From a phage, in NCBI GenBank assembly GCA_037574385.1, contig GCA_037574385.1_4529.1: a DNA stretch of 64,000 nt, one strand, 5' to 3'. The notes beneath the pieces were generated by a model that searched no databases, had not been told where the DNA came from, and saw nothing but the letters and a program-made list of their open reading frames with translations. Positions 13,947 through 44,245 of this stretch are shown in pieces (the stretch's first letter is position 1; each line of letters opens with the position of its first letter). Both the position numbers and the translations under genes were made by a program.

Positions 13947-15047
13947 TTACGCTGTGAAGATTTTATCCCACATTGCAACAACTGCATCTCGGTTATACTT
14001 CTTCCATACTGCTTCAGCACGTTTAACTCGAGCTTCGTATGTGTCAGTGAATTCTAATACAGCTTTTGTGTAAAGCGCAACTACTTCTTTCTTAGGAGTA
14101 GAGGAATCAATTTCTACACGCACAGTATCTGGGTCATATTCGAATGTCGCATGCGGATAATCCTTAAAAACTAACTGAATTACAGGGACACCTTTAGAAA
14201 TGGCTTCAATAGAACTATTCTCTACCGTACCTGTGTCAGGACACGTATTAATAAGTGCTTTAGCTGTTTTAAGACGTTCCATAATTTCACTGTGTGGAGC
14301 ATCAATAATAACAGGATACTTAGCCGGTGGTGCCCATTTACTAGGACAGTATCCTGCGCCATTTTCGCCTAGTGCTTTAATCGCTTCAAGAGCAACATCA
14401 GTACGACGCATTTTAGTGTCATAACGTTGTGCACTAATAATCAGATCAGTCGCCGGAAGAACTTCAGGTTTCTCATTCAAACAAATAACCGGATAATCTT
14501 CGGCTTCAAACAACGGATTTGCTCGCCAATAATCATAATCAATTTTGTCAGTCAGACCTGAAGTCATATAACAATATTTGCGTTCAAATTCACGGAAGGC
14601 TTTAGTAGGAGCATAACTCTTACCACCGTTCTTATGAATTTGAATAGTCTGGTCCCAAATTTGAACAATGCCACGAGATACCGGCTCAAACGGTGTTGCC
14701 ATAAAATTCTTATGAACTTTAGAGAGACCTGCGTCTTTAATTGCCTGAACGGTTAGTTTAGTCGGTTCCATTGTAACAACGAAATCGTACTCATTAATGC
14801 CGGCTAGTTCAACAATCTTACGAGCCATAGTATAACTCATACCTAGACTGAATTTAGTCAGATGACCAACAGGATGATGATTAACCTTCCAATCACCAAA
14901 CGTGTCATTATCAAAGCCGATATAATCAATATCAGCACCGATGGACACAAGATATTTCAACACATTTAAATGTACTGCTTCAAGACCACCTTGTACACGT
15001 TCTGGGTTAAACGGGACTGCGCGAGATGGGATAAACATAACTTTCAT
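13947..15047 (-). CDS. GT-B fold glycosyltransferase (candidate DNA sugar transferase)
   Basis: 366 aa; N-terminal Rossmann segment and C-terminal ENSSIEAISKGVPVIQ resembling the GT4 E-x7-E donor-binding motif; occupies the rIIA-39 gap. Confidence 0.55.
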   Translation of the reverse strand: MKVMFIPSRAVPFNPERVQGGLEAVHLNVLKYLVSIGADIDYIGFDNDTFGDWKVNHHPVGHLTKFSLGMSYTMARKIVELAGINEYDFVVTMEPTKLTVQAIKDAGLSKVHKNFMATPFEPVSRGIVQIWDQTIQIHKNGGKSYAPTKAFREFERKYCYMTSGLTDKIDYDYWRANPLFEAEDYPVICLNEKPEVLPATDLIISAQRYDTKMRRTDVALEAIKALGENGAGYCPSKWAPPAKYPVIIDAPHSEIMERLKTAKALINTCPDTGTVENSSIEAISKGVPVIQLVFKDYPHATFEYDPDTVRVEIDSSTPKKEVVALYTKAVLEFTDTYEARVKRAEAVWKKYNRDAVVAMWDKIFTA

Positions 15048-22708: not shown

Positions 22709-23455
22709 TTAACCTTTAACCAATTGGAATAATGATGCGCTAAGTGGTAAGCCACGTTTCAATTTTAATTTACCAATGAAACCAATCTTTTCAAAACGTT
22801 GCAAACCTTGGATAACTTTATCATATGTATCGAAAAGCGATTCAGCGTCAGTTAATTTAGTTTTAGTTTTCCAGTCAGAGCCTTTAAGAAGAACGTTGAG
22901 TTTAGTAAGTTCATGGCCTTCTGCTTGGTGTGAACCATTAATGCGTGCTTTCAAAGCAACAATTCTAAGTTTAGATTCGTTAGATAAAGGTTGATTTTTC
23001 ATCATGTTCGCCATATGCTTAACACGATTTTCACGTTTTGCTCGGATTTTTAAAATAGTACCATAAACCTTTTTAATTTGGGCCCATTTCTTCTCGTCGA
23101 GATTAAGTTTCTCTACTTTACGGACAGAAGGATTAGCGATACGTCTTGCAATGGCATCACGTTTCTCAATAAGTTCTTCTAATGTTAAATCAGAACGAGC
23201 CGTGTTATATTTTTTCTTAACTGGGATAACATTACCTTTAATGTAGCCGATATCGTTATCAAAACGTTCTAAGGATAATTTCTCACCTTCAACAGAGTTA
23301 TTGAAAGATTCACCTGAGTAAGCGCAGACCTTTTGATCAAGAATGTTTTTAAGGTAATTAAAGTCTAAGTTAAAATCCTTAGAGCGTCTCTTCGCAGAAG
23401 CTCTGGTGTGGTCAAGACGACGATTGATTTTGTTAATTTTATTATTTGATAACAT
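22709..23455 (-). CDS. srd: Srd-like protein (sigma-related, host transcription modulation)
   Basis: 248 aa basic protein at the T4 srd position (between mod genes and dda); size matches. Assignment by synteny. Confidence 0.5.
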   Translation of the reverse strand: MLSNNKINKINRRLDHTRASAKRRSKDFNLDFNYLKNILDQKVCAYSGESFNNSVEGEKLSLERFDNDIGYIKGNVIPVKKKYNTARSDLTLEELIEKRDAIARRIANPSVRKVEKLNLDEKKWAQIKKVYGTILKIRAKRENRVKHMANMMKNQPLSNESKLRIVALKARINGSHQAEGHELTKLNVLLKGSDWKTKTKLTDAESLFDTYDKVIQGLQRFEKIGFIGKLKLKRGLPLSASLFQLVKG

Positions 23456-33337: not shown

Positions 33338-33700
33338 TTAAAAGAATTTAAATTTTTTCTTGGTTCGTTCATTAAAAGCTTGTTGTACCTGCATTGTAAC
33401 ACATTTTTCAACATGCGGCGCAAGTTCTGCTTTTCTGTCCTGGTCAAGAACTGCAAAGTCCATTACGATTTTACCATCAACCCAATCTAGTTTTGTAATA
33501 TAGACTATATGATGGGAGCCGTCTTCAAGTGTAATCAGAATCTCTTGAATGACATTTTCCATTGCTGAACGGATAATTTTAAGAGATTCATTAAACACTC
33601 GTTCTTTGCGAATGTCTTCCCCTTCCGAAGAAGGGGATTCATCAACGATTTCTAGATTCAAATCATCGAGATTATTCATCGAAATCTTCCATTTCGTCAA
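33338..33700 (-). CDS. 40: gp40-like protein
   Basis: 120-aa ORF between uvsX and 41 as in T4. Confidence 0.6.
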   Translation of the reverse strand: MTKWKISMNNLDDLNLEIVDESPSSEGEDIRKERVFNESLKIIRSAMENVIQEILITLEDGSHHIVYITKLDWVDGKIVMDFAVLDQDRKAELAPHVEKCVTMQVQQAFNERTKKKFKFF

Positions 33701-34844
33701 GGTCGTTTTCTATATCTGCTGCAGATGGAGCATCAGAAGCTTTAACCGGAACTTTAGTTGTTGCTTTGCAATTAATAAGGTCGTTAACAGCGTCATCAAC
33801 TTCTTTAATAGAAGAGATAGCACCTAGTTTATATTTAGTTTCAATTGCATCTCGGAAAGGTTTGTGTTTAAACAACGGTCCCCAGAATTCTACACAATCA
33901 GTAGCTTTAGCACGCCATGATTTCTCTTCACGAATCATTTCGCCTGTTTCTTCGTCAAGGAATTCGCGAGCATACCACCCAGCTTTAGGCTTAACTACAA
34001 AACCAATTTCGGTTGCCATTTCTAGCAAGCCACTGAATGGGTCGATACCGCCATCAAAATTAACCGTGATCGGGAAAGTAGATTTCTCTTTAACTGTACG
34101 AGATTTTTCTGCTTTCAACGTGAAGTCATAACCGGTCAATTCTGTACCTTCTTTAACCTGACGTTTAGAGATAAAGAATACAGTGTTAGCAGAGTAAAGA
34201 ATACCTGTACCACCGCCCATAATCTCTTTAGGATATAGTCCGCCGATTTCCATTGCGGTATGGTTGATTGCAACACACGGAATATCTTTAATAGTCAGAT
34301 AAGGAGTCACAATGCGGAAAAGAGATTTAAGTGCCTTAGCACGAGACATATCACCTACGACTTTCTCGTTCAATGCATCTTCGGTTTCTTTCTTAGATGC
34401 AGTATTACCGATTGAATCGATAAAGATAATAACTTTATCACCGCGTTCAATTGCATCAAGCTGATTAGTCATATCAACTTTAAGTTGTTCGACAGACTGA
34501 ATTGGTGTATGAACTACACGGTCTAAATCAACACCCATTGAACGAAAATAAGATTCTGAAGCACCAAATTCCGAGTCATAAAACAAACAGATTGCATCTT
34601 TATATTTCTTCATATACGCTGCAACCATAGTCAGCCCAAACAATGTTTTAAAATGTTTAGAAGGTGCAGCAAAAATAGTCAAGCCTGATTGCAATCCTGC
34701 ATTCAGAGCACCACCTAGTGCAATATTCAACATCGGAATACGAGTAGGGACTTCATCACGATTATTAAACAGCTTAGACTTAGTCAAGTCTGCAGTCATT
34801 TTAGAAGTAGAAGCTTTAATCAGACGAGATTTTAAATCAGACAT
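33672..34844 (-). CDS. uvsX: UvsX recombinase (RecA-like)
   Basis: 390 aa RecA-fold ATPase with acidic C-terminal tail; matches T4 UvsX. Confidence 0.95.
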   Translation of the reverse strand: MSDLKSRLIKASTSKMTADLTKSKLFNNRDEVPTRIPMLNIALGGALNAGLQSGLTIFAAPSKHFKTLFGLTMVAAYMKKYKDAICLFYDSEFGASESYFRSMGVDLDRVVHTPIQSVEQLKVDMTNQLDAIERGDKVIIFIDSIGNTASKKETEDALNEKVVGDMSRAKALKSLFRIVTPYLTIKDIPCVAINHTAMEIGGLYPKEIMGGGTGILYSANTVFFISKRQVKEGTELTGYDFTLKAEKSRTVKEKSTFPITVNFDGGIDPFSGLLEMATEIGFVVKPKAGWYAREFLDEETGEMIREEKSWRAKATDCVEFWGPLFKHKPFRDAIETKYKLGAISSIKEVDDAVNDLINCKATTKVPVKASDAPSAADIENDLDEMEDFDE

Positions 34845-34943: not shown

Positions 34944-35492
34944 TTAACGAGCCCATTTGATAATTTCTGTAATCAAATTATTACGTTCGCTTGCATTAAA
35001 TCCTATAACTTTGTTAGCACCATCATGATTAAGTAATTGATACGTTTGGATTTTGTTATGAATTGCAAACTCTTCAAAATGTGAAATGACTGTATTAAAA
35101 CCGAATGAAGACAAAGTAATAAGGTCGTCTTCAAAACTTTCAGTCATTTCGTTACGTGTTAAAATAATTGTGAACACATCATGGTTTTGGCAAAGACGAA
35201 TATAATCCTGTTCATAAACGTCAAGAACCGAGTCCGCATCTTGTCGAATACGTCCATAAACCCAGTTACTAATATATCCACGGTCTAATAGATAAATCTT
35301 AGTAGGGTCTAAATAATTCAACATCGTTTCGAAACAGCCAACTTCATTTCGAGACTTAACATCGAAACGCCCATCAACTGTTCGTTTAGGGAAATCAATC
35401 TTTACATATCTTTCACTAATTTCCATTATGTCATTAATGAAAGTTGTTTTACCAGCATTATCCGGTCCGTCTACTAAAATAATTTTAGCCAT
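34944..35492 (-). CDS. P-loop kinase (NMP-kinase/gluconokinase-like fold), substrate unknown
   Basis: 182 aa; Walker A LVDGPDNAGKTT at residues 5-16 and a later hhhhD Walker B-like segment. Confidence 0.55.
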   Translation of the reverse strand: MAKIILVDGPDNAGKTTFINDIMEISERYVKIDFPKRTVDGRFDVKSRNEVGCFETMLNYLDPTKIYLLDRGYISNWVYGRIRQDADSVLDVYEQDYIRLCQNHDVFTIILTRNEMTESFEDDLITLSSFGFNTVISHFEEFAIHNKIQTYQLLNHDGANKVIGFNASERNNLITEIIKWAR

Positions 35493-35493
35493 T

Positions 35494-36393
35494 TTATTCC
35501 TCGATTACGACATCTTCGTATTTAGGTATATTATACGGTGAAGAAATTAAAGCATTAAAGTAGATGAACTCACCAAGACCTGGATGGAATACTTCTTCAG
35601 GATTTTCGAAATATTGAATCTTCGGACGTCCTTTAAGAATTTGATAGTACTCAGTTTTAGTTGGTTTAAAAATTCGAATCAGCGCTTCTTCAGGGTACTT
35701 ATTTCTGTCGAAGCTAATATTTGGATCTGTTATATAAAGCGGTTGGCCTAATTGAATTGCACATTCAACCACTTGTTCAAAACGATAGCACGGGTCACTA
35801 ATTCGAAATGGATGAAAAATACCATCTAGATGAATAGGAGCCAAATCACCTACAAGACGCTGCATGATGGAAGGACGTATAACTTTCTGCGTTACGATAA
35901 TCTTATTACCATCTGCACCTGCGTTAACCAGCACTTCCTTTTGACGTTCATTCAACACAGTAGTTTGAAGTGAACGATTAACCGACAACATATCGGTTTT
36001 TAAGAATTCATCAATATAAAAGCGTGGTTTATTAGGGTCTGTAGTGATATTGAAATTGAATTCCACATCAAAAGCGCCATCATATCCAGTGATATCTGTG
36101 ATTAGAAAATCACAATCATAATAAGCAATTAATGAATCAACCACAAATTCATTTTCAGACCAGAAATATTTACGAGTGTTATACGCGTTATCTTTATACC
36201 ATAATGGAACAAACTTAAATTCCGGGAAAAGACGTTCACATTCTTTAATATCAGATGCATTACGTGGATATGTAATCACATCACCCGGATTAGCACGGTG
36301 CAAATGAAGTTGGAAGTTGCCATCCTTAAGGATAGCATACTGTCCAGTTTCATAAGACCGCATACTCAAGATTGGTACGCGGAAAATAGCCAT
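35494..36393 (-). CDS. hypothetical protein (299 aa) at the position of T4 beta-gt; candidate transferase
   Basis: No motif recognised; placed between uvsX and the hydroxymethylase where T4 encodes beta-glucosyltransferase. Confidence 0.5.
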   Translation of the reverse strand: MAIFRVPILSMRSYETGQYAILKDGNFQLHLHRANPGDVITYPRNASDIKECERLFPEFKFVPLWYKDNAYNTRKYFWSENEFVVDSLIAYYDCDFLITDITGYDGAFDVEFNFNITTDPNKPRFYIDEFLKTDMLSVNRSLQTTVLNERQKEVLVNAGADGNKIIVTQKVIRPSIMQRLVGDLAPIHLDGIFHPFRISDPCYRFEQVVECAIQLGQPLYITDPNISFDRNKYPEEALIRIFKPTKTEYYQILKGRPKIQYFENPEEVFHPGLGEFIYFNALISSPYNIPKYEDVVIEE

Positions 36394-37109
36394 TAGTCAA
36401 GGAATCCTTTAACATAATCAAAATCACGTTCAAACACATGGGCACTTACCATGGTATGAGTATAATCACCAACTTCTACACCGCATTCGTTAGCGATATA
36501 ATGAAGTAATTTTCCTTGGAGATAAAAATCCAACTGCATAACAACAGCACAGTTCTGAGAACGCATATGGCAGTGCGTATAAAGCTTACCATCACGAATA
36601 TAATAAGTAACTGAGTCAGTACATGGATATTCAAGCGTTTCGTCTGAATCAAGCAAAGCCTGATCAGAACTTTCTAGAATTTGGAACACAACTCTTCGGG
36701 AGTTAGGCTTCTCTTTAAGTTCTTTTAGAAGAGCTGGTAATTGGGCCGCAATGCGAGGACCATAGAAAGTGTTGAAGTTCGCCGGCAAAACATCTGATTT
36801 TGGTTTAGAAATAAATTTAGCGACATTAGGATATGCCTTAAACGCTTCTTCTGCGTTGGTACCACCAGAAATCATAAACTTCCAGAAGTCTTCGGCATAT
36901 TCATAAGAGATGCGGTTAATACGTGGGTCGGTCATTTTGAATGATGATGGAGTGTCAACAACTACTGTCATAGACCCAATTTCATTACAACGTCCAATAC
37001 GAGAATCAGTTACGAATTCCGGGTTTTCTAAAATTTCACGATTGACTGCTTTAAATGCGGTTTGAAAATCTGCGGCTTTGATATATTTCATTGTGTTATG
37101 TTTTCCCAT
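36393..37109 (-). CDS. thymidylate-synthase-family pyrimidine nucleotide hydroxymethylase (divergent gp42-like)
   Basis: 238 aa; SRRVVFQILES, EYPCTDSVTYYIRDGKL and VSAHVFERDF align with TS / dCMP-hydroxymethylase motifs (catalytic Cys in PCT). Confidence 0.6.
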   Translation of the reverse strand: MGKHNTMKYIKAADFQTAFKAVNREILENPEFVTDSRIGRCNEIGSMTVVVDTPSSFKMTDPRINRISYEYAEDFWKFMISGGTNAEEAFKAYPNVAKFISKPKSDVLPANFNTFYGPRIAAQLPALLKELKEKPNSRRVVFQILESSDQALLDSDETLEYPCTDSVTYYIRDGKLYTHCHMRSQNCAVVMQLDFYLQGKLLHYIANECGVEVGDYTHTMVSAHVFERDFDYVKGFLD

Positions 37110-37151: not shown

Positions 37152-37391
37152 TTATTTGAATTTCTTGACAATGTTGATATAACGTAAAGCTTCAGCATCG
37201 ATACTTCCAAGGACACTATGAAGAAATGCATCAGCGTAGTATTCCAATTGAATAGGTTCTTTAATCACTTTAGCCGCTTTGGTTTCAAACAGGCCCATCA
37301 GGGCCTTTTTAAGAATTTGTTCGTTGCTGTTAATTTTCGTAGTCAAAATCTCTTCATTAAGTTGGTGGTTAAAAGTTTTTCTAGAAATCAT
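37152..37391 (-). CDS. hypothetical protein (79 aa)
   Basis: ORF within the cassette. Confidence 0.45.
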   Translation of the reverse strand: MISRKTFNHQLNEEILTTKINSNEQILKKALMGLFETKAAKVIKEPIQLEYYADAFLHSVLGSIDAEALRYINIVKKFK

Positions 37392-38563
37392 TCCGGGTAC
37401 CTCAAAGCGTCATCAGAGTTAGTTATATCAATAATAGATATAGAGTTTTCTGCTAACCCATTTTTAGATAATTGACGTTTATAATATCTTTCACAATATG
37501 TACACGTTGACCCACAGATTTCATTAGCACAATCAAAATCAGGATGTCTGAACCACCTTTTTTCTAAAAAGCCATCTAACAAAGAGGTTTCAATATTTAC
37601 TGTATGTGAAAACTCAGTCTCATTTTCAAGAGTGAAAATAGTCTCTAAAGGCTTCCACAGTTCTAACAAATTACCTTCAAACTTTTCAGAAGCGTATGCT
37701 TCAAGAACTTTCAAAATGTAGTCTGTGCTACCTGTACGTCCTGAAACTTTGAATTGAGTGATACCAATATCATTATAAAGTTTCAAATCTTGAGGACGAA
37801 CAAAACGAGTTCTCAACCAGTTAAATGGGTCTGTATCACGAGCTTTAATACAGTGCTGCATTGGATATCCATTTAAGGATTTAGCATCATCAGCTGTAAC
37901 ATCAGTACTATGGAAAATATAGCAAGAGTCACGATAGCTACAATGTGTTGTATACCCTTTACCAGCATTAGAACAGAACTCATTTACAAGAACTTCAAAT
38001 ATTATATTGTTCTTATTGCAAAACTCTGCTGCACGCTTCAGGAAAGAAACTGAACGGTTCTTATGAATTCCACAGCAGACCTTTTTGATATTATATTGGT
38101 CATGCAAGTATTTGATTTGAGTTACGGCATCGACATGTAGAATTGTTGAAACTTCAATCTCAATATCTTTATTGACTTCACGAACAATTTCCATAACAAC
38201 AGGGTTAGCGATAGTAATACGCCATACGCCTATTGACCAAAGATACTGAACATAATCCTGAATAGCTTTCTTCTTCCACTCAACTAGTTCTCTTTTTGAA
38301 CCAGGATTTATCGTGTTGAGTGTATAGTTAAAGCAAATACCTAATTCGTTACAACGTTTAACGTAGTCTTCTAACATCTTTTTGTCAACGTCAGGAAGCC
38401 TAAAATCAGGTCTGGCTGCTACAAAAGCCATTTCTCTTGTAGAGCCATATACTTCGTTTATCAAGCTATTAGGATAGGTTTTATTGAGCTCTACGATTTT
38501 ATCAAGAAGAGCTAAATCAAAATTCGTTCCGATTTTAAAAGTATTCATTTTTTTGCATCTCAC
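37388..38563 (-). CDS. Cys-rich hypothetical protein (391 aa), possibly metal/Fe-S binding
   Basis: Several conserved-looking Cys; C-terminal C-x4-C-x3-C-x2-C (CANEICGSTCTYC). No family assignable by eye. Confidence 0.5.
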   Translation of the reverse strand: MRCKKMNTFKIGTNFDLALLDKIVELNKTYPNSLINEVYGSTREMAFVAARPDFRLPDVDKKMLEDYVKRCNELGICFNYTLNTINPGSKRELVEWKKKAIQDYVQYLWSIGVWRITIANPVVMEIVREVNKDIEIEVSTILHVDAVTQIKYLHDQYNIKKVCCGIHKNRSVSFLKRAAEFCNKNNIIFEVLVNEFCSNAGKGYTTHCSYRDSCYIFHSTDVTADDAKSLNGYPMQHCIKARDTDPFNWLRTRFVRPQDLKLYNDIGITQFKVSGRTGSTDYILKVLEAYASEKFEGNLLELWKPLETIFTLENETEFSHTVNIETSLLDGFLEKRWFRHPDFDCANEICGSTCTYCERYYKRQLSKNGLAENSISIIDITNSDDALRYPE

Positions 38564-38604: not shown

Positions 38605-39006
38605 TTATAGATTCGGTTTATATGATTTAAATGTTTCGAATTCGCCTTTATTCATAAGAGCTTTGAATTCGTCAGGACGCATAGCTTTGTCGTCGATAAT
38701 CCAATCATATACTGGTTTATGTGTTAGCAAATTATGGTACTTCAAGCCAATGTTTGCCAAGTTCTGAATCAGACTTGGGAGAATGTCAATTGCTATACGT
38801 CCAGGACCTACTGACTTCATACCACGAGCAGTGTAAAGCGTTATGGTATGCCCTGCATCATACAGGGCATTAATGGCAGACACCATTTCGACGTCTGGTT
38901 TGAAGTTCACGTAATCGCGATTGTTATTCCATTCTGTGATGCAATCATCGACATCAAAACAAAGATTAAGCATGTTTTCTACACGGTGCATTAGATTTGT
39001 TCCCAT
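38605..39006 (-). CDS. small HAD-superfamily phosphatase
   Basis: 133 aa; motif I FDVDDCIT near N-terminus; later T/S and K/D motifs consistent with a capless HAD phosphatase. Confidence 0.55.
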   Translation of the reverse strand: MGTNLMHRVENMLNLCFDVDDCITEWNNNRDYVNFKPDVEMVSAINALYDAGHTITLYTARGMKSVGPGRIAIDILPSLIQNLANIGLKYHNLLTHKPVYDWIIDDKAMRPDEFKALMNKGEFETFKSYKPNL

Positions 39007-40676
39007 TGATGAGTGATATCGCCACCGATTGGACGATAAGAAACACCAGTTTCTTTATCAGTTAGTACCCATTTACCAGGATTTTTTGTAATCAGAGTAG
39101 CCGTTACAGGTTCTGCTACGTCATAACTAATAGAGCCGTCTTGAAGTACACGGCCCATGTTACGTAATTGCTTAGTTAGAAGTTCCATACCTTTATAATA
39201 TGCGGCTACCGCTTTAAGTGGATTATTCTTGAAATAACCACCTAATGCAATCCAGATAATTGCCACTGCCAAATGATGATACTCGTTAAACGAACTCATC
39301 TTTCCATATTTGTAAACTAATGGATTGATGTTAATAGTCACATTACAAGTTGTTTCATCAATAATAAACTGGCCCCAGGTCGGATTAGCGTTGAATTCAT
39401 CATAACCTGAAACAGCATAAAGCACTTTAGCTTCATCATACAATTTTGGCCCGTAAATCTTGGTTTCACCAAAATATCCACGAGGGTCGATAAACTTGAC
39501 TTCGCCGTTATCAGTAATCATAGTATTACTGAAGTTCGGGTCACCGTGAATAACAGAGTACTGTCCCTGAGAACGGTTATGATAACGAATAAGGTGTTCT
39601 AAAGCTTGTTTCAGCATTGGCTTCAGACGTCCAATCTTAGTGTAGTTCACGTGTGTGATTTTACCAAATGAATCAATCAATGGCTGAATGCTTTCACAAC
39701 GATCAATAACTTTCGTATAGAACTCTTTAGTGAAATCACGACGAACAGTTTCAGGACTTACAAAATAAATGTCTGTGTTAAATTTCAGTGCATCTAAAAT
39801 TGCATCAATAATTTGTGGACGAGCAAGACTTGATTTGGATTTAATATATTCAAATGCTGGCTTACCTTTAATGCGTTCCATTTCAAAGTTATTTTCATTA
39901 ACAGAAACTAACTGAGGAACTGAATCTGATTTCACTTTCAAATACCATGAAATCTCATCTTTTTGAAGAGCTCGACCTTGTTCAGTTAATGCGAATTTAG
40001 TTACAGTTTCTTCACCAATTTCAACCGCATTAAAACTACGATTAAGTTCACGAACTTCATGAGCTTTTTCAAGTTTAGGCATATCACCAAGGTCGATGAT
40101 ATTCATAAGCTCTGATTTATTGAATGCGCCGCTGTAAAGGAATTCTACAAAATCACGTCCTTTGCAGTATTCGTGAATTTCCTCATCAGTAGAACCCATG
40201 TAGAATTCCCAGTCTTTGAACTGATAAATTCCTACAACATTACCGCCTGTTGCACCTACATTAGTGATATTTTCACCATCGAAATTATATCGACATTCAT
40301 CACCTTTAACATAGATTGCGTTAACATTCCAAGACCATGAACCAAAATCAGGAATAATATCACACCAGTTAACAACTACGTTATGGCCGTCTAAATCTTT
40401 GTGTAATTTAGCAAGAGCATAAGCAGAACCATACGCTTCATCAACTGTACGAATAGTCACATTGAACCCTTCTTGCTCACAATAAGCTCGAACAGTTTCA
40501 GCAAATTTTGAATGAACTACTACAATAATTTCATCTGCGCCAAGGTCAGAATAAATTGTATACAAATTGCTCAGAATAGTGTCTTGTTTATAGTTCACAA
40601 GAACTTTTGGAATATGGTGAGTAATTGGATATAAACGAGTTGCCAATCCAGCACCAAGAATAACAGCTTTTTTCAT
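38991..40676 (-). CDS. bifunctional sugar-1-phosphate nucleotidyltransferase / APH-type anomeric sugar kinase
   Basis: 561 aa; N-terminal ILGAGLATRLYP (G-x-G-x-R nucleotidyltransferase signature); C-terminal HGDPNFSNTMI...KFIDPRG matching the APH/choline-kinase catalytic loop. Confidence 0.65.
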   Translation of the reverse strand: MKKAVILGAGLATRLYPITHHIPKVLVNYKQDTILSNLYTIYSDLGADEIIVVVHSKFAETVRAYCEQEGFNVTIRTVDEAYGSAYALAKLHKDLDGHNVVVNWCDIIPDFGSWSWNVNAIYVKGDECRYNFDGENITNVGATGGNVVGIYQFKDWEFYMGSTDEEIHEYCKGRDFVEFLYSGAFNKSELMNIIDLGDMPKLEKAHEVRELNRSFNAVEIGEETVTKFALTEQGRALQKDEISWYLKVKSDSVPQLVSVNENNFEMERIKGKPAFEYIKSKSSLARPQIIDAILDALKFNTDIYFVSPETVRRDFTKEFYTKVIDRCESIQPLIDSFGKITHVNYTKIGRLKPMLKQALEHLIRYHNRSQGQYSVIHGDPNFSNTMITDNGEVKFIDPRGYFGETKIYGPKLYDEAKVLYAVSGYDEFNANPTWGQFIIDETTCNVTININPLVYKYGKMSSFNEYHHLAVAIIWIALGGYFKNNPLKAVAAYYKGMELLTKQLRNMGRVLQDGSISYDVAEPVTATLITKNPGKWVLTDKETGVSYRPIGGDITHQWEQI

Positions 40677-40713
40677 GTTGAAGTCCTCATTGGTAAGTAG
40701 GTGTATTGTACAC

Positions 40714-40860
40714 TATTCTAGTTAAAGCATTCATACTTTGCCTGTAGACCAATCATAATCCATCCAATTACAAGTGTTGGAATCATTACTGGAGCCGTTA
40801 AGCTCCAGTAGATAGTCATGACAAGCATCAATAGTAAAAGTCCTATTGTTATTGCTTTCA
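40714..40860 (-). CDS. possible small membrane protein (~48 aa, below threshold); positional candidate for Imm-like protein
   Basis: Hand translation MKAITIGLLLLMLVMTIYWSLTAPVMIPTLVIGWIMIGLQAKYECFN; ATG overlaps the upstream stop (ATGA). Confidence 0.35.
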
Positions 40861-41493
40861 TTGTTCGCCTCGTAACATGGCACCTAGTGCACCGCCAGGG
40901 TGGAACTTAAGGAAATCATTAGAGGTAAATCCGCGTTCAGACGAAAGGTTGATAGCGAACGTATCGATAAGCGCTAACAACAATGTAGTGGACATAGTCG
41001 GAGCTAAAGAGTTCTCGTCAACTTCTACCGCGATACCGGTACAGAATGTATAATCAAAAAGAGCTTCGTATTCTTGTGGAATGTCAGGGTTACAATGTAA
41101 CAGAATCTGTTTAACCTGAGGACGAATCATACGAAGATGTTTAGCAACACCTATCATTTCTTCAGTCTTACCAGAACGACTGATGTGAACTAATACATCA
41201 TTAGGTGCAATGAATCCTGCATCACCGTGAGAATAATGCCCAGTGTTCAAATACATGCTAGGAATACCTAGTGAAGCAAAAGTCTCGGAAGCTTTAGTTG
41301 CGATATTAGCGTTCTTACCAACACCTGTAATAATTACACGACTTTCATAATTACTCAGTCCTGGGCGTCGAAGAGTTTCTAGAATAGCATTATAACGAGC
41401 AGGGTTTTGACTAATTACTTTGGCCATAGCGGCCAAAGAAGAAGCTTGTTTTATGATTGCGTCAATAGCGATAGTGATTGGTGTAGTTTTCAT
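40858..41493 (-). CDS. SIS-domain sugar-phosphate isomerase, D-arabinose-5-phosphate isomerase (KdsD/GutQ)-like
   Basis: 211 aa; ITGVGKNANIATKASETFASLGIPS matches the SIS phosphosugar-binding motif; single SIS domain without CBS domains. Confidence 0.65.
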   Translation of the reverse strand: MKTTPITIAIDAIIKQASSLAAMAKVISQNPARYNAILETLRRPGLSNYESRVIITGVGKNANIATKASETFASLGIPSMYLNTGHYSHGDAGFIAPNDVLVHISRSGKTEEMIGVAKHLRMIRPQVKQILLHCNPDIPQEYEALFDYTFCTGIAVEVDENSLAPTMSTTLLLALIDTFAINLSSERGFTSNDFLKFHPGGALGAMLRGEQ

Positions 41494-41533: not shown

Positions 41534-44245
41534 TCAAAAATCGAACATATCGAACAGAGATGCTTTCTTCTCGTAATCGAGTTTCGCTGCTGATGTGAAT
41601 CCTTCAAGTGGTTTAATAAATGTCTTCTCAAGGAGAACCGTGTAGTCCATCCAATGAAGTACGTCGTCTTTAATTAAATCTGTGATTTCAGTACCAGAAG
41701 GCCATGCGATACATTTATCACCGAATGGGTTTCCTTCACGTAAAGGCAGAACATATACTTTTTCACCTTCTACAACTTGTGGTGCATCAATATTACCTTT
41801 GATAGCCCGGTTATACGTTAGAATTCCACGAATATGGAACGGGCATTTGGGACCCGGGAATCCACCTACATCATATTTAGCAATGTTATTCGCAGAAGAT
41901 ACCGACGCGATGCTAATATAATTCAATTGACGGAATTCTTTTTCAAACTCTTTAAAATACTCTTGTAATGATTCTTCACCTTCCTGAAGCATACGACGAA
42001 TACATTCCTTAAGAGCTTTCTGTACCGCTTTAGGAGTTGAAGATTTCTGTGTTTCGAGACCCATGATTTTGAGTTTAGGCTTAGCGTAACGAGTACCTTC
42101 CATATCCCACACGTTTAATGCATAACGTTTCTTACCAGTCCAAAATCCGCCAATACCTTTAGAACCGAGCGGAGGACCAGCGATAGCTTCTCGGTCCATG
42201 AACATCAAATGTTGCTTATTATTCATGTATTCGCACATTTCACGGAAACCTCTATCAATAGCAGGTTCCATACGTTCACGAGCGAACTTATCTAAGAAGT
42301 CTACCCAATGGTTGGTATCACGGAATTTAGATTCACCAACCTTATCAATAATTTTATCTGCAGATACATAAATGGAGTCTGTATCACCGTATAGAACGAA
42401 AGCTTCACCTTCTGTACCACAAACTTCGTTCAGATATTCATTAACTTTACGTTCAATCCACTGTAAAGCCATTTGCCCGAATGTTGTGATTGCAGTAGCA
42501 TTACGCAAATCATAATAACGGAACCAAACGTTGCCAAGTGCACCATAAAGTGAGTTGATAAGCAATTTACGGTTAATCTGTGCAGTCATACCTGCAACTT
42601 CAGTACGTTGAGCTCTAAACAACATTTCATTAAGAGATTTAGCAGACAACTTTTTAATCTTTTCTTTAATCTCGTCAGTGAAGTCGAAACGATAATCAAC
42701 ATCTAATGGTTCGTCAACAGAAAGATTAGGATTATGCAATGCCTCTTTAATTATTTCACCATTACGTTGAGCTGCAAGCATGTAACCTTTATGTTCTTTA
42801 CGCTGATTAAAGACCTTAGTGATTTCAGTTGGAACTACACCATCACGGTCTTTATAATACATCATGCCATTAGGAGAGCAACTGTACACATCTGAAGGAC
42901 GTTCAGCAACAGCGTTAATATAATCATGTAATGGAGCTACTTTAAACGTTCCTGCTATTGTTTCTGGGCTAATATTCACTTGGCGAATAATACTTGGATA
43001 CAGAGATGTAAGGTCGAAACTCATTACATATTTGTATCGATTTGGAATAGGTTCCTTAACAAAAGCGCCTGGGTAAGGTTGAACCGGGTGAGAACGACCT
43101 TGTGGAATCACCTTGTTCTGCTCTTTAAGGCTATTAAAAATAATAGCATCCCATGTTTTAATTGGGCTAAACACAGATTGAATCTGTATCTTAGCATAAT
43201 AACCCATGTCCAAACTCAAGTTGATGAACTGACGCTTAGCATCAATTTGCAATACACGATACACGTCGATAATGTTATAAGAAATATATCGTTGGTGATT
43301 GCTTTCACGAAGCTTAGAAATAGGGCCGTCATATTTCAGTTTACCAACGTTCAATTCAAATTCTGAAATGTAATCCAGAGAATACGACGGTTGATTGGTA
43401 AAAGAGAATTTTTTGTAAAGGTCAATGTAATCAAGAACAGAGATACCGAACAATGTAATGATTTCACGAGAACCATACATGTTTTCGATAACTTTAACAT
43501 GAGTTTTACGATGTGGTGATAAACGTTTCGCAGTAGATTCGCCAAAAATATTCTTGATTCGGTTATACACATATGGAATATCAAATGACTCAACGTTCCA
43601 TCCGGTTAAAATGACAGGAGTTTTCTGTTGCCAGAAGTTGAGATATTCCATCAACAATTCTTTTTCGTTATCGAACGGCATATAAATGATTTTATCAATA
43701 ATTTCGGATGGAACTTCATCACCACCTTGTTCTTGAAGCTTAGCAGCGATTTCAATAGACCATTCTTCTACATTACCATATGGAGAATTCAATAGATCAA
43801 ATACGTAAAACCTGTCGTCAATTGAGTCATAATGAGTGATAGCATCAATCGGATGTTTTGCTTGTGACGGCTCAGGGAACCCATCCGGAGATGTTACTTC
43901 GATGTCGAAGTTAGCCACACGAATTTTTGTATGGTCGTATTTGATTTCATAGTTATAAGTGTCAGACAAATACGCCAATTTGAAATCGTCCATGCCAAGT
44001 GCTTCAAGTCCGATATCTTCCATGCGTTTAATCCATTGGGAGGCATCACGCATATTAGCGAACAACTTACGAGTACACGACTTACCGTAGATATCGAAAT
44101 ATTTCGTAGCCTGACTTTCTGGACAATGAGCAAACAGTGATGGTTTATATTCTACTTCACGAGTACGTTCACGGCCATTAGAATCGATGTAACGTTCAAA
44201 AATTGAATCACCGATCTGTTCAACCGTTAAGTAAAATTCTTTCAT
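41534..44245 (-). CDS. 43: DNA polymerase gp43 (family B)
   Basis: 903 aa; exonuclease motifs, YGDTDS polymerase motif; N-terminus MKEFYLTVEQIGDSIFERYIDSNGRERTREVEYKPSLFAH... matches my memory of RB69 gp43. Confidence 0.97.
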   Translation of the reverse strand: MKEFYLTVEQIGDSIFERYIDSNGRERTREVEYKPSLFAHCPESQATKYFDIYGKSCTRKLFANMRDASQWIKRMEDIGLEALGMDDFKLAYLSDTYNYEIKYDHTKIRVANFDIEVTSPDGFPEPSQAKHPIDAITHYDSIDDRFYVFDLLNSPYGNVEEWSIEIAAKLQEQGGDEVPSEIIDKIIYMPFDNEKELLMEYLNFWQQKTPVILTGWNVESFDIPYVYNRIKNIFGESTAKRLSPHRKTHVKVIENMYGSREIITLFGISVLDYIDLYKKFSFTNQPSYSLDYISEFELNVGKLKYDGPISKLRESNHQRYISYNIIDVYRVLQIDAKRQFINLSLDMGYYAKIQIQSVFSPIKTWDAIIFNSLKEQNKVIPQGRSHPVQPYPGAFVKEPIPNRYKYVMSFDLTSLYPSIIRQVNISPETIAGTFKVAPLHDYINAVAERPSDVYSCSPNGMMYYKDRDGVVPTEITKVFNQRKEHKGYMLAAQRNGEIIKEALHNPNLSVDEPLDVDYRFDFTDEIKEKIKKLSAKSLNEMLFRAQRTEVAGMTAQINRKLLINSLYGALGNVWFRYYDLRNATAITTFGQMALQWIERKVNEYLNEVCGTEGEAFVLYGDTDSIYVSADKIIDKVGESKFRDTNHWVDFLDKFARERMEPAIDRGFREMCEYMNNKQHLMFMDREAIAGPPLGSKGIGGFWTGKKRYALNVWDMEGTRYAKPKLKIMGLETQKSSTPKAVQKALKECIRRMLQEGEESLQEYFKEFEKEFRQLNYISIASVSSANNIAKYDVGGFPGPKCPFHIRGILTYNRAIKGNIDAPQVVEGEKVYVLPLREGNPFGDKCIAWPSGTEITDLIKDDVLHWMDYTVLLEKTFIKPLEGFTSAAKLDYEKKASLFDMFDF

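What the first reader, a model, noticed from the sequence alone, without database searches (positions are those of the whole stretch)
38605..41493. Three-gene module that looks like a free-sugar to NDP-sugar pathway (isomerase, phosphatase, anomeric kinase-nucleotidyltransferase fusion) sitting where T4 has beta-gt/imm
Between uvsX and 43, T4 carries beta-gt, 42 and imm. Here the same slot holds a SIS-domain isomerase of the KdsD/GutQ arabinose-5-phosphate isomerase type (40858-41493), a small HAD phosphatase with motif FDVDDCIT (38605-39006), and a 561-aa fusion of a sugar-1-phosphate nucleotidyltransferase N-domain (LGAGLATRL) with an APH/choline-kinase-type kinase C-domain (HGDPNFSN...FIDPRG). 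Together these specify a plausible route: ribulose-5-P -> arabinose-5-P -> arabinose -> arabinose-1-P -> NDP-arabinose, i.e. a phage-encoded donor-sugar supply for DNA glycosylation. Arabinosyl-hmC has been reported for RB69-like phages, but the enzyme assignments here are my inference from motifs, not a database result.
Basis: partly seen in the sequence, partly recalled or inferred. Interest (0 to 1): 0.85.

Follow-up and report, generated by a model that had tools for sequence, protein, structure and literature searches.

The report
Known phage UDP-arabinose pathway genes

Summary
Three co-directional minus-strand genes lie between uvsX and DNA polymerase gene 43: a single-domain SIS arabinose-5-phosphate isomerase, a 561-aa nucleotidyltransferase/APH-type kinase fusion, and a small HAD phosphatase. 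Profile searches, invariant catalytic motifs, fold searches and four-domain fusion proteins found elsewhere all support these assignments.

The window is a Mosigvirus (RB69-like) phage, and the module is already known. Thomas 2018 proposed it, and Lee 2026 and He 2026 characterised it (RB69 gp55, gp52:53, gp51; HY126 AfhE/AfhF). The window's HAD protein is identical to PDB 9IQW.

The product is UDP-D-arabinofuranose for DNA glycosylation. However, the kinase is reported to act on arabinose-5-P to give the 1,5-bisphosphate, and the HAD enzyme then removes the 5-phosphate, so free arabinose is not an intermediate. The acceptor base is 5-hydroxycytosine, not hydroxymethylcytosine.

One side lead emerged. 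The neighbouring U32-family gene (37388-38563) is the most conserved protein of the cluster. It sits next to a phage chorismate mutase in 16 of 20 related phages. In other viral contigs it occurs with the glycosyltransferase but without the ThyA-like hydroxylase. It may be an O2-independent, prephenate-dependent cytosine hydroxylase. I found no accessible paper that says so.

The parts
40858..41493 (-). Single-domain SIS arabinose-5-phosphate isomerase (RB69 gp55 homologue): Ru5P <-> D-Ara5P
   Evidence: Pfam SIS 9.6e-10; TIGR00393 8.9e-32; KdsD 3.9e-30. PDB 3etn 9.6e-25 with the GxGK, HGD, SxSGKT and HxGG motifs aligned. No CBS domains.
40718..40861 (-). 47-aa hydrophobic ORF between the isomerase and the fusion; function unknown, membership in the pathway uncertain
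   Evidence: 4-nt overlap with the SIS stop. Homologues in Bp7 (57% identity, next to imm) and in many T4-like loci.
38991..40676 (-). Bifunctional enzyme (HY126 AfhE / RB69 gp52:53 homologue). The C-domain is an APH/choline-kinase-fold kinase (Ara5P -> Ara-1,5-P2). The N-domain is a sugar-1-P nucleotidyltransferase (Ara1P + UTP -> UDP-Araf).
38605..39006 (-). Small HAD phosphatase (HY126 AfhF / RB69 gp51 homologue): removes the 5-phosphate of Ara-1,5-P2. Probable true start is Met6 at 38991.
   Evidence: TIGR01689 4.3e-13. 100% identical over residues 5-133 to PDB 9IQW. Invariant D18, D20, T56/T59, K97, D105-D106. TAATG junction.
37388..38563 (-). U32-family protein (RB69 gp50 homologue). Unassigned in the literature I could read. 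Proposed here as a prephenate-dependent, O2-independent C5 hydroxylase. Probable start is the ATG at 38548.
   Evidence: Pfam Peptidase_U32 7.4e-11. Foldseek top hit 5d88. Ten invariant Cys. hhalign is best to RlhA. Chorismate mutase is adjacent in related phages.
37152..37391 (-). 79-aa ORF translationally coupled to the U32 gene (RB69 gp49 homologue); unknown function; not a chorismate mutase
   Evidence: 4-nt overlap with the U32 stop. Conserved in Yersinia and Serratia phages between U32 and chorismate mutase. No Pfam hit.
36393..37109 (-). ThyA-homologue 5-hydroxy-dCMP synthase (RB69 gp48 homologue; flavin- and O2-dependent). Makes the acceptor base.
   Evidence: Thymidylat_synt 2.3e-15. 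Five substitutions in 238 residues relative to PDB 9IQC/9IR2. C146 kept; L143E, D169N, N177D. Function shown for RB69 gp48 in PMC13326640.
35494..36393 (-). Putative first DNA arabinosyltransferase (RB69 gp46:47 homologue)
   Evidence: PHROG 3891 5e-155; no Pfam hit. Assignment taken from PMC13326640. Homologues sit next to U32 in 18 unrelated viral contigs.
34944..35492 (-). Thymidylate-kinase-like P-loop nucleotide kinase (RB69 gp45 homologue)
   Evidence: PHROG 761 'thymidylate kinase' 2.6e-45. Conserved in all related loci.
13947..15047 (-). Probable second arabinosyltransferase (RB69 gp3/ORF003c position, between rIIA and topoisomerase gene 39)
   Evidence: Position only plus the literature (PMC6024577, PMC13326640). 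No Pfam hit.

Best explanation
The window comes from a Mosigvirus (RB69-like T-even relative). The three genes form the phage-encoded supply line for UDP-D-arabinofuranose.

1. The SIS enzyme converts host ribulose-5-P to D-arabinose-5-P.
2. The C-terminal APH-fold kinase domain of the 561-aa fusion phosphorylates C1, giving arabinose-1,5-bisphosphate.
3. The small HAD phosphatase removes the 5-phosphate, giving arabinose-1-P.
4. The N-terminal nucleotidyltransferase domain of the fusion couples it to UTP.

Downstream genes of the same operon make the acceptor and attach the sugar. The ThyA homologue and nucleotide kinases make 5-hydroxy-dCMP and its phosphorylated forms. The glycosyltransferases attach one or two arabinoses to 5-hydroxycytosine. 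The modified DNA is protected from restriction enzymes.

Shown here: gene structure, families, motifs, folds, synteny, and identity to solved HY126 proteins. Taken from the literature: enzyme activities, the order of steps, and the DNA chemistry.
For: ORFs and tight junctions (-4, -16, -4, -1 nt) between uvsX and gene 43. Family assignments. The region is 97-98% identical at DNA level to many Mosigvirus genomes. The HAD protein is identical to PDB 9IQW, and the ThyA homologue differs from 9IQC at five of 238 residues. Catalytic motifs are invariant in homologues down to 28-29% identity. The two-domain fold of the fusion is confirmed. The fusion, HAD, ThyA-like, GT and kinase genes are syntenic in phages of Acinetobacter, Pseudomonas, Shewanella, Klebsiella, Yersinia and Serratia. 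Rosetta-stone evidence: distant homologues are single HAD-SIS-NTase-kinase polypeptides. Literature: PMC6024577 (arabinose in RB69 DNA; ORF53_52c and ORF055c proposed); PMC13326640 sections 24-27 (5hoC, gp48 activity, UDP-Araf used by DLP3 transferases, AfhE/AfhF activities relayed from He et al. 2026).
Against: I could not read the primary biochemical paper (He et al., Nat Chem Biol 2026), so the step order rests on its summary in PMC13326640. Table 1 of that same paper still carries the older labels ('dephosphorylates Araf5p to Ara'; 'phosphorylates Ara to Araf1p'). No sequence of AfhE itself was available to compare. The link of 9IQW/9IQC to HY126 is my inference from identity and timing, because the PDB names are generic. 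Nucleotide specificity (UTP) is not predictable from sequence. Several related phages lack the isomerase (Bp7, Potts1, Thanatos-2), so it is an accessory rather than a core part.
Confidence: 0.85

Rival explanations
1. One reading: the HAD enzyme dephosphorylates Ara5P to free arabinose, the kinase domain then acts as an anomeric kinase on the free sugar (as AmgK does on MurNAc), and the N-domain activates Ara1P.
For: The fold pair resembles AmgK/MurU and LicA/LicC, whose kinases act on unphosphorylated substrates. Table 1 of PMC13326640 still lists these step labels.
Against: The text of PMC13326640 reports, for the homologous HY126 enzymes, D-arabinose-5-phosphate kinase activity for AfhE and dephosphorylation of Ara-1,5-P2 by AfhF. 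The ADP-heptose pathway gives a precedent for kinase-then-HAD-phosphatase. Releasing free pentose would waste a phosphate and let the intermediate escape.
Confidence: 0.1
2. The module makes a sugar for something other than DNA (Kdo/capsule or LPS remodelling of the host, or a phosphocholine-type pathway).
Against: The genes are embedded in one operon with the 5hodCMP synthase, a nucleotide kinase and the DNA glycosyltransferase, and this synteny holds across many genera. RB69 DNA contains arabinose on every cytosine (PMC13326640). There is no Kdo-8-P synthase or CMP-Kdo synthetase in the cluster.
Confidence: 0.03
3. The same enzymes make a different nucleotide sugar (a different pentose such as xylose, or a CDP/GDP/dTDP carrier).
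For: The Thanatos study discusses activated xylose for the 54%-identical homologue. Nucleotide specificity cannot be read from the motifs. The nearest folds include cytidylyl-, thymidylyl- and guanylyl-transferases.
Against: NMR and GC-MS identify D-arabinose in RB69 and DLP3 DNA, and the DLP3 transferases used UDP-Araf in vitro. AfhE is reported as a UDP-D-arabinose pyrophosphorylase. The isomerase family is specific for Ara5P.
Confidence: 0.07

Closest known systems
RB69 gp55 / gp52:53 / gp51 and phage HY126 AfhE / AfhF (UDP-D-arabinofuranose pathway; Thomas 2018, Lee 2026, He 2026)
   Same: Same genes in the same slot of the same phage genus. The HAD protein is identical to the solved structure 9IQW. 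The fusion is 561 aa, as in the corrected RB69 ORF53_52c. Neighbours are the same (U32, ThyA homologue, GT, kinase).
   Different: Nothing substantive. There are a few amino-acid differences (for example, the fusion ends ...WEQI here versus ...WERI in the RB69 primer of Thomas 2018). The RB69 GenBank record splits the gene because of a sequencing error, whereas the window has it intact.
ADP-L-glycero-beta-D-manno-heptose pathway (GmhA, HldE, GmhB)
   Same: Same chemical logic: SIS isomerase, anomeric kinase acting on a sugar phosphate, HAD phosphatase removing the distal phosphate, then nucleotidyltransferase. The kinase and transferase are fused in one protein in both.
   Different: Different folds for both catalytic domains of the fusion. 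HldE is a ribokinase-fold kinase plus a cytidylyltransferase-fold transferase. Here the domains are an APH/choline-kinase fold plus an RmlA/MurU fold. The sugar is also different (heptose versus pentose). This is analogous, not homologous.
AmgK-MurU and LicA-LicC (APH-fold kinase + small nucleotidyltransferase pairs)
   Same: Best structural matches for the two domains (MurU, LicC, LicA, choline kinases). Both make a 1-phosphate (or phospho-alcohol) and then the NDP derivative.
   Different: Those are separate proteins acting on unphosphorylated substrates, with no isomerase or phosphatase step.
KdsD / GutQ / KpsF arabinose-5-phosphate isomerases
   Same: SIS domain with the same active-site motifs; same reaction expected.
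   Different: Lacks the C-terminal tandem CBS domains, like the single-domain Bacteroides fragilis enzyme 3etn. It feeds an NDP-arabinose rather than Kdo.
U32-family prephenate-dependent hydroxylases RlhA, TrhP, UbiU/UbiV (for the neighbouring gene 37388-38563)
   Same: U32 TIM-barrel domain, many conserved cysteines, and genomic linkage to chorismate mutase or DAHP synthase (prephenate supply). RlhA makes the same base chemistry (5-hydroxycytidine).
   Different: Very divergent: no NCBIfam equivalog hit, and hhalign to RlhA gives only 83% probability. The cysteine spacing differs. There is an extra C-terminal CX4CX3CX2C cluster. The substrate would be a deoxynucleotide or DNA, not RNA or a quinone. 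No experiment exists.

Membership tests
KpsF/GutQ/KdsD arabinose-5-phosphate isomerase | SIS domain | tested here: met
   Pfam SIS 9.6e-10, above cut-off. TIGR00393 8.9e-32 and KdsD 3.9e-30, but both below the full-length cut-offs.
KpsF/GutQ/KdsD arabinose-5-phosphate isomerase | Active-site motifs (GxGK, HGD, SxSG, HxGG) | tested here: met
   Aligned residue by residue with the solved isomerases 3etn and 5uqi.
KpsF/GutQ/KdsD arabinose-5-phosphate isomerase | C-terminal tandem CBS domains | tested here: not met
   The protein is 211 aa and matches only positions 2-153 of the 268-position model. It is a single-domain type like 3etn.
KpsF/GutQ/KdsD arabinose-5-phosphate isomerase | Ru5P <-> Ara5P activity | not testable with these tools
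   Needs an enzyme assay.
HAD phosphatase, AfhF / TIGR01689 EcbF-BcbF type | HAD motifs I-IV (DxD, T/S, K, DD) | tested here: met
   D18, D20, T56/T59, K97, D105-D106 are invariant in 8 phage homologues.
HAD phosphatase, AfhF / TIGR01689 EcbF-BcbF type | Sequence identity to the solved phage enzyme | tested here: met
   100% over residues 5-133 to PDB 9IQW. That 9IQW is HY126 AfhF is my inference.
HAD phosphatase, AfhF / TIGR01689 EcbF-BcbF type | Ara-1,5-bisphosphate 5-phosphatase activity | not testable with these tools
   Reported for HY126 AfhF, as relayed in PMC13326640.
AfhE-type bifunctional kinase / UDP-arabinose pyrophosphorylase | N-terminal sugar-1-P nucleotidyltransferase fold with GxGxRL and the catalytic Lys | tested here: met
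   Pfam 8.1e-10. G10, R14, K24 invariant. MurU, RmlA and LicC are the top fold hits.
AfhE-type bifunctional kinase / UDP-arabinose pyrophosphorylase | C-terminal APH/choline-kinase-fold domain with HxDxxxxN and the metal-binding Asp | tested here: met
AfhE-type bifunctional kinase / UDP-arabinose pyrophosphorylase | Substrate is Ara5P (not free arabinose) and the nucleotide is UTP | not testable with these tools
   Literature only.
ADP-heptose pathway (GmhA/HldE/GmhB) | Ribokinase-fold kinase and cytidylyltransferase-fold adenylyltransferase (HldE) | tested here: not met
   The domains here have the APH fold and the RmlA/MurU fold. The module works like the ADP-heptose pathway but is not a member.
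U32 prephenate-dependent hydroxylases (neighbour gene 37388-38563) | Peptidase_U32 domain / fold | tested here: met
   Pfam 7.4e-11. Foldseek top hit 5d88, TM 0.71 on the target.
U32 prephenate-dependent hydroxylases (neighbour gene 37388-38563) | Conserved Cys ligands of an Fe-S cluster | tested here: inconclusive
   Ten invariant Cys. C208/C214 align with the CX6C of RlhA, but the spacing differs and no coordinates were available.
U32 prephenate-dependent hydroxylases (neighbour gene 37388-38563) | Dependence on prephenate | not testable with these tools
   Indirect only. Chorismate mutase follows U32 in 16 of 20 T4-like loci, and DAHP-synthase/chorismate-mutase fusions lie near U32 in other viral contigs.
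U32 prephenate-dependent hydroxylases (neighbour gene 37388-38563) | Membership of a characterised subfamily (RlhA, TrhP, UbiU, UbiV) | tested here: not met
   Only a UbiU hit at 9.4e-4, far below cut-off. hhalign probabilities: RlhA 83%, TrhP 14%, UbiU 4%.

The most novel reading that the evidence does not exclude
The cluster may hold a second, oxygen-independent way to make the acceptor base. The U32-family protein next to the HAD gene (37388-38563, RB69 gp50 homologue), perhaps together with the coupled 79-aa ORF, would be a prephenate-dependent Fe-S hydroxylase that puts the 5-OH on (deoxy)cytidylate under anoxia. It would complement the O2- and flavin-dependent ThyA homologue. This mirrors UbiU/V versus UbiI/H/F, and TrhP versus TrhO, in the host. 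Phages of strict aerobes would carry only the ThyA-type enzyme, phages of facultative anaerobes would carry both, and many uncultured phages would carry only U32 plus the glycosyltransferase.
Probability: 0.55. Interest if true: 0.7.

Novelty: already known. Interest (0 to 1): 0.2.

Why it matters
The three-gene module explains how RB69-like phages make a donor sugar that their enterobacterial hosts are not known to make. That sugar lets them coat every cytosine with arabinose and resist restriction enzymes. This matters for phage therapy and for engineering these phages, but it is published work, so the finding adds only a new member.

What could still matter is the unassigned U32 gene in the same operon. 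If it is an anaerobic, prephenate-dependent cytosine hydroxylase, it would be the first U32 hydroxylase acting on DNA precursors. It would also explain how an O2-requiring DNA modification can work in the anoxic gut, and it would give a marker for finding hydroxylated and glycosylated DNA in uncultured phages.

Tried and rejected
1. Papers not held. The two primary papers could not be read (He et al., Nat Chem Biol 2026; Mahler et al., Cell Host Microbe 2025). Their content is known to me only through PMC13326640.

2. orf79 as a chorismate mutase. I tested whether the 79-aa ORF after U32 is a divergent chorismate mutase and rejected this. It has no Pfam hit, forms a separate family, and coexists with a true CM_2 protein in Yersinia and Serratia phages.

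3. Chorismate mutase in the window. None was found. The best tblastn hit (E 0.11, 22742-22861) lies inside an unrelated 248-aa ORF.

4. 'U32 present if and only if the host is a facultative anaerobe'. This holds only in part. Acinetobacter and Pseudomonas phages lack U32, but so do E. coli Dhakaviruses such as Bp7.

5. ThyA-like neighbours of distant U32 homologues. None was found in megaphage-like contigs or in 29 viral contigs.

6. Pfam on the two putative arabinosyltransferases gave no hits.

I repeated it with database homologues.

8. PDB sequence search with U32 found nothing at E <= 1.

9. Exact source genome. The best full-length match is 98.0% identical (phiC120), so the exact genome is not in the collection.
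Full report
**1. What is there**

ORF listing shows nine co-directional minus-strand ORFs between uvsX (33672-34844) and DNA polymerase gene 43 (41534-44245). In order of transcription they are:
- SIS protein (40858-41493, 211 aa)
- a 47-aa hydrophobic ORF (40718-40861)
- the 561-aa fusion (38991-40676)
- a HAD protein (38605-39006)
- a U32-family protein (37388-38563)
- a 79-aa ORF (37152-37391)
- a ThyA homologue (36393-37109)
- a 299-aa protein (35494-36393)
- a thymidylate-kinase-like protein (34944-35492)

Gene junctions are -4, +41, -16, +41, -4, +42, -1 and +1 nt, so this is a tightly packed operon. Reading the DNA shows that the HAD gene most likely starts at Met6, with a TAATG overlap on the fusion's stop. 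The U32 gene most likely starts at the ATG at 38548.

**2. Family assignments**

- SIS protein: SIS/KpsF-GutQ/KdsD (down to 8.9e-32).
- Fusion, residues 1-109: NTP_transferase.
- Fusion, around residues 354-409: only weak kinase-family hits.
- HAD protein: TIGR01689 'capsule biosynthesis phosphatase'.

I checked the weak kinase call in three independent ways.
- H377-G-D379, N384 and D397-P-R-G400 are invariant in 26 homologues down to 29% identity, as are G10, R14, K24, D106 and D195 of the transferase domain.
- A 43%-identical homologue passes Pfam APH.

The HAD motifs D18, D20, T56/T59, K97 and D105-D106 are invariant. The SIS protein aligns motif for motif with the solved single-domain isomerases 3etn and 5uqi and lacks CBS domains.

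**3. Evidence that the three genes work together**

The fusion, HAD, ThyA-like, glycosyltransferase and kinase genes are syntenic in T4-like phages of Acinetobacter, Pseudomonas, Shewanella, Klebsiella, Yersinia, Serratia and E. coli Dhakavirus.

The isomerase is missing from some of them (Bp7, Potts1, Thanatos-2). This fits Ara5P being a normal host metabolite of Kdo synthesis (the host-metabolism point is from my own knowledge).

Distant homologues of the fusion (30-35% identity, 890-955 aa) are single polypeptides with the order HAD - SIS - nucleotidyltransferase - kinase. One sits in a giant-virus-like context with MutS7-HNH and Rpb2. This is classical Rosetta-stone evidence for a single pathway.

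**4. It is already known**

The region is 97-98% identical to many Mosigvirus (RB69-like) genomes.
- Thomas et al. 2018 (PMC6024577) found arabinose in RB69 DNA, corrected the ORF053c/052c frameshift to one 561-aa protein, and proposed it and ORF055c for UDP-arabinose synthesis.
- Lee et al. 2026 (PMC13326640) assign RB69 gp55, gp52:53 and gp51 to Ru5P -> Araf5P -> Araf-1,5-P2 -> Araf1P -> UDP-Araf. For the kinase-first order and the phosphatase step they cite enzymology on phage HY126 (AfhE, AfhF; He et al., Nat Chem Biol 2026).
- The window's HAD protein is identical over residues 5-133 to PDB 9IQW. Its ThyA homologue differs from 9IQC/9IR2 at five of 238 residues. I take these entries to be the HY126 structures.

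**5.

(a) The route through free arabinose is contradicted by the reported Ara5P-kinase activity. The logic instead matches the ADP-heptose pathway (GmhA, HldE, GmhB), although with unrelated folds.

(b) The modified base is 5-hydroxycytosine with the sugar on an ether oxygen, not hmC (PMC13326640; PMC13390438).
- The window's ThyA homologue keeps C146 and has L143E, D169N and N177D relative to E. coli ThyA. D169N is the published predictor of 5hodCMP synthases.
- That enzyme binds a flavin and takes its oxygen from O2.

**6. Side lead: the U32 gene**

RB69 gp50 is labelled only 'sugar or heterocycle reductase' by Lee et al. and 'epimerase' in PMC13390438. No accessible paper connects it with U32 hydroxylases, chorismate or prephenate.

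All characterised non-peptidase U32 proteins are O2-independent hydroxylases that need Fe-S clusters and prephenate.
- RlhA makes 5-hydroxycytidine in 23S rRNA (PMC5727448).
- UbiU/V take the oxygen atom from prephenate (PMC10990095).

My findings:
- (i) U32 is the most conserved protein of the cluster. It is at least 80% identical in all 222 phage records that carry it, including phages where the fusion is only 43-54% identical.
- (ii) No Acinetobacter name appears among the U32 hits, although 57 Acinetobacter records carry the fusion. The Maestro and PspYZU05 loci lack U32. However, E. coli Dhakavirus Bp7 lacks it too.
- (iii) In 16 of 20 T4-like loci with U32, a type II chorismate mutase lies directly after U32 (or after the 79-aa ORF) and before the ThyA homologue. 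Pfam CM_2 scores are 8e-8 to 5e-10, above cut-off. The window and three other Mosig-/Marfavirus loci are the exceptions. The three loci without U32 have no such gene.
- (iv) The U32 family has ten invariant cysteines, including a C-terminal CX4CX3CX2C. Among the four E. coli paralogues, hhalign is best to RlhA (83%, E 9e-6) and aligns C208/C214 with the RlhA CX6C. The AF2 model's top Foldseek hit is the U32 structure 5d88.
- (v) In 29 non-T4-like viral contigs with 37-55%-identical U32 homologues, some of which are near-duplicates, the neighbours within 7 kb include:
  - a homologue of the cluster's glycosyltransferase in 18, often directly upstream of U32
  - a Tmk-like kinase in 13
  - the NTase-kinase fusion in 11
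  - the SIS isomerase in 9
  - chorismate mutase or DAHP-synthase/chorismate-mutase fusions in 5-6
  - a ThyA-like protein in none at E < 1e-4
- (vi) Other homologues sit beside dCMP deaminase, thymidylate kinase, deoxynucleoside kinase and a deoxy-5'-nucleotidase.

The simplest reading is that U32 is a prephenate-dependent pyrimidine C5 hydroxylase. In enterobacterial phages it would act in parallel with the O2-dependent ThyA homologue. This is inference only. The substrate is unknown, and the two papers I could not read may already address it.

**7. Verdict**

The module is already known. Interest in the finding as given is low. The neighbouring U32/chorismate-mutase link is the part worth an experiment.

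Noticed in passing
window 37388-38563 (-); related loci L004, L015, L016, L019-L032: The U32-family gene in the arabinosylation operon is at least 80% identical across all 222 phage records that carry it. In 16 of 20 T4-like loci it is followed by a phage chorismate mutase. This suggests a prephenate-dependent, O2-independent hydroxylase, which I did not find described in accessible papers.
   Followed up: yes
L031, L033-L059 (IMG/VR contigs): In non-T4-like viral contigs, U32 homologues sit with a homologue of the cluster's glycosyltransferase (18 loci), Tmk-like kinases, the NTase-kinase fusion and the SIS isomerase. No ThyA-like gene lies within 7 kb. Three to five of these contigs carry DAHP-synthase/chorismate-mutase fusions two genes from U32.
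   Followed up: partly
L007 8001-9086; L010 8001-9083; L008 8001-9098: U32 homologues of about 55% identity in very large phage-like contigs (up to 466 kb) lie beside dCMP deaminase, thymidylate kinase, UDG-fused DnaE polymerase, deoxynucleoside kinase, NT5C and a nucleoside deoxyribosyltransferase.
   Followed up: partly
window 37152-37391 (-): The 79-aa ORF is translationally coupled to U32 (4-nt overlap). It is conserved in Yersinia and Serratia phages (NHxLNE and EYYxDAFxHS motifs). It has no known family and is not a chorismate mutase. It could be an accessory factor of U32.
   Followed up: partly
window 40718-40861 (-): A 47-aa, strongly hydrophobic ORF lies between the isomerase and the fusion. 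It is conserved in many T4-like phages. In Bp7 it follows the imm gene, so it is not imm itself.
   Followed up: partly
P0204, P0208, P0209, P0214 (proteins); L061 7001-9781: Four-domain HAD-SIS-nucleotidyltransferase-kinase polypeptides of 890-955 aa exist. One is in a giant-virus-like neighbourhood (MutS7-HNH, RNA polymerase Rpb2) and one is in a eukaryotic transcriptome. They look like a whole Ru5P-to-NDP-pentose pathway in a single protein.
   Followed up: partly
L002 (Bp7), L004 (Thanatos-2), L005 (Potts1): Several phages with the fusion and HAD genes have no SIS isomerase in the cluster. The isomerase is therefore dispensable, presumably because the host's KdsD/GutQ supplies Ara5P.
   Followed up: partly
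L003 13650-14258; L004 10683-11273: The HAD phosphatases of Pseudomonas phage PspYZU05 and Shewanella phage Thanatos-2 carry an extra C-terminal extension of about 70 residues that is absent from the window's protein.
   Followed up: no
window 38991 and 38548: The longest-ORF starts are probably too far upstream. The HAD gene likely starts at Met6 (TAATG overlap with the fusion stop, matching the PDB construct). The U32 gene likely starts at the ATG at 38548, which matches its homologues.
   Followed up: yes
window 13947-15047 (-): A 366-aa ORF lies between rIIA and topoisomerase gene 39. This is the position of RB69 ORF003c, the proposed second arabinosyltransferase. It has no Pfam hit.
   Followed up: partly
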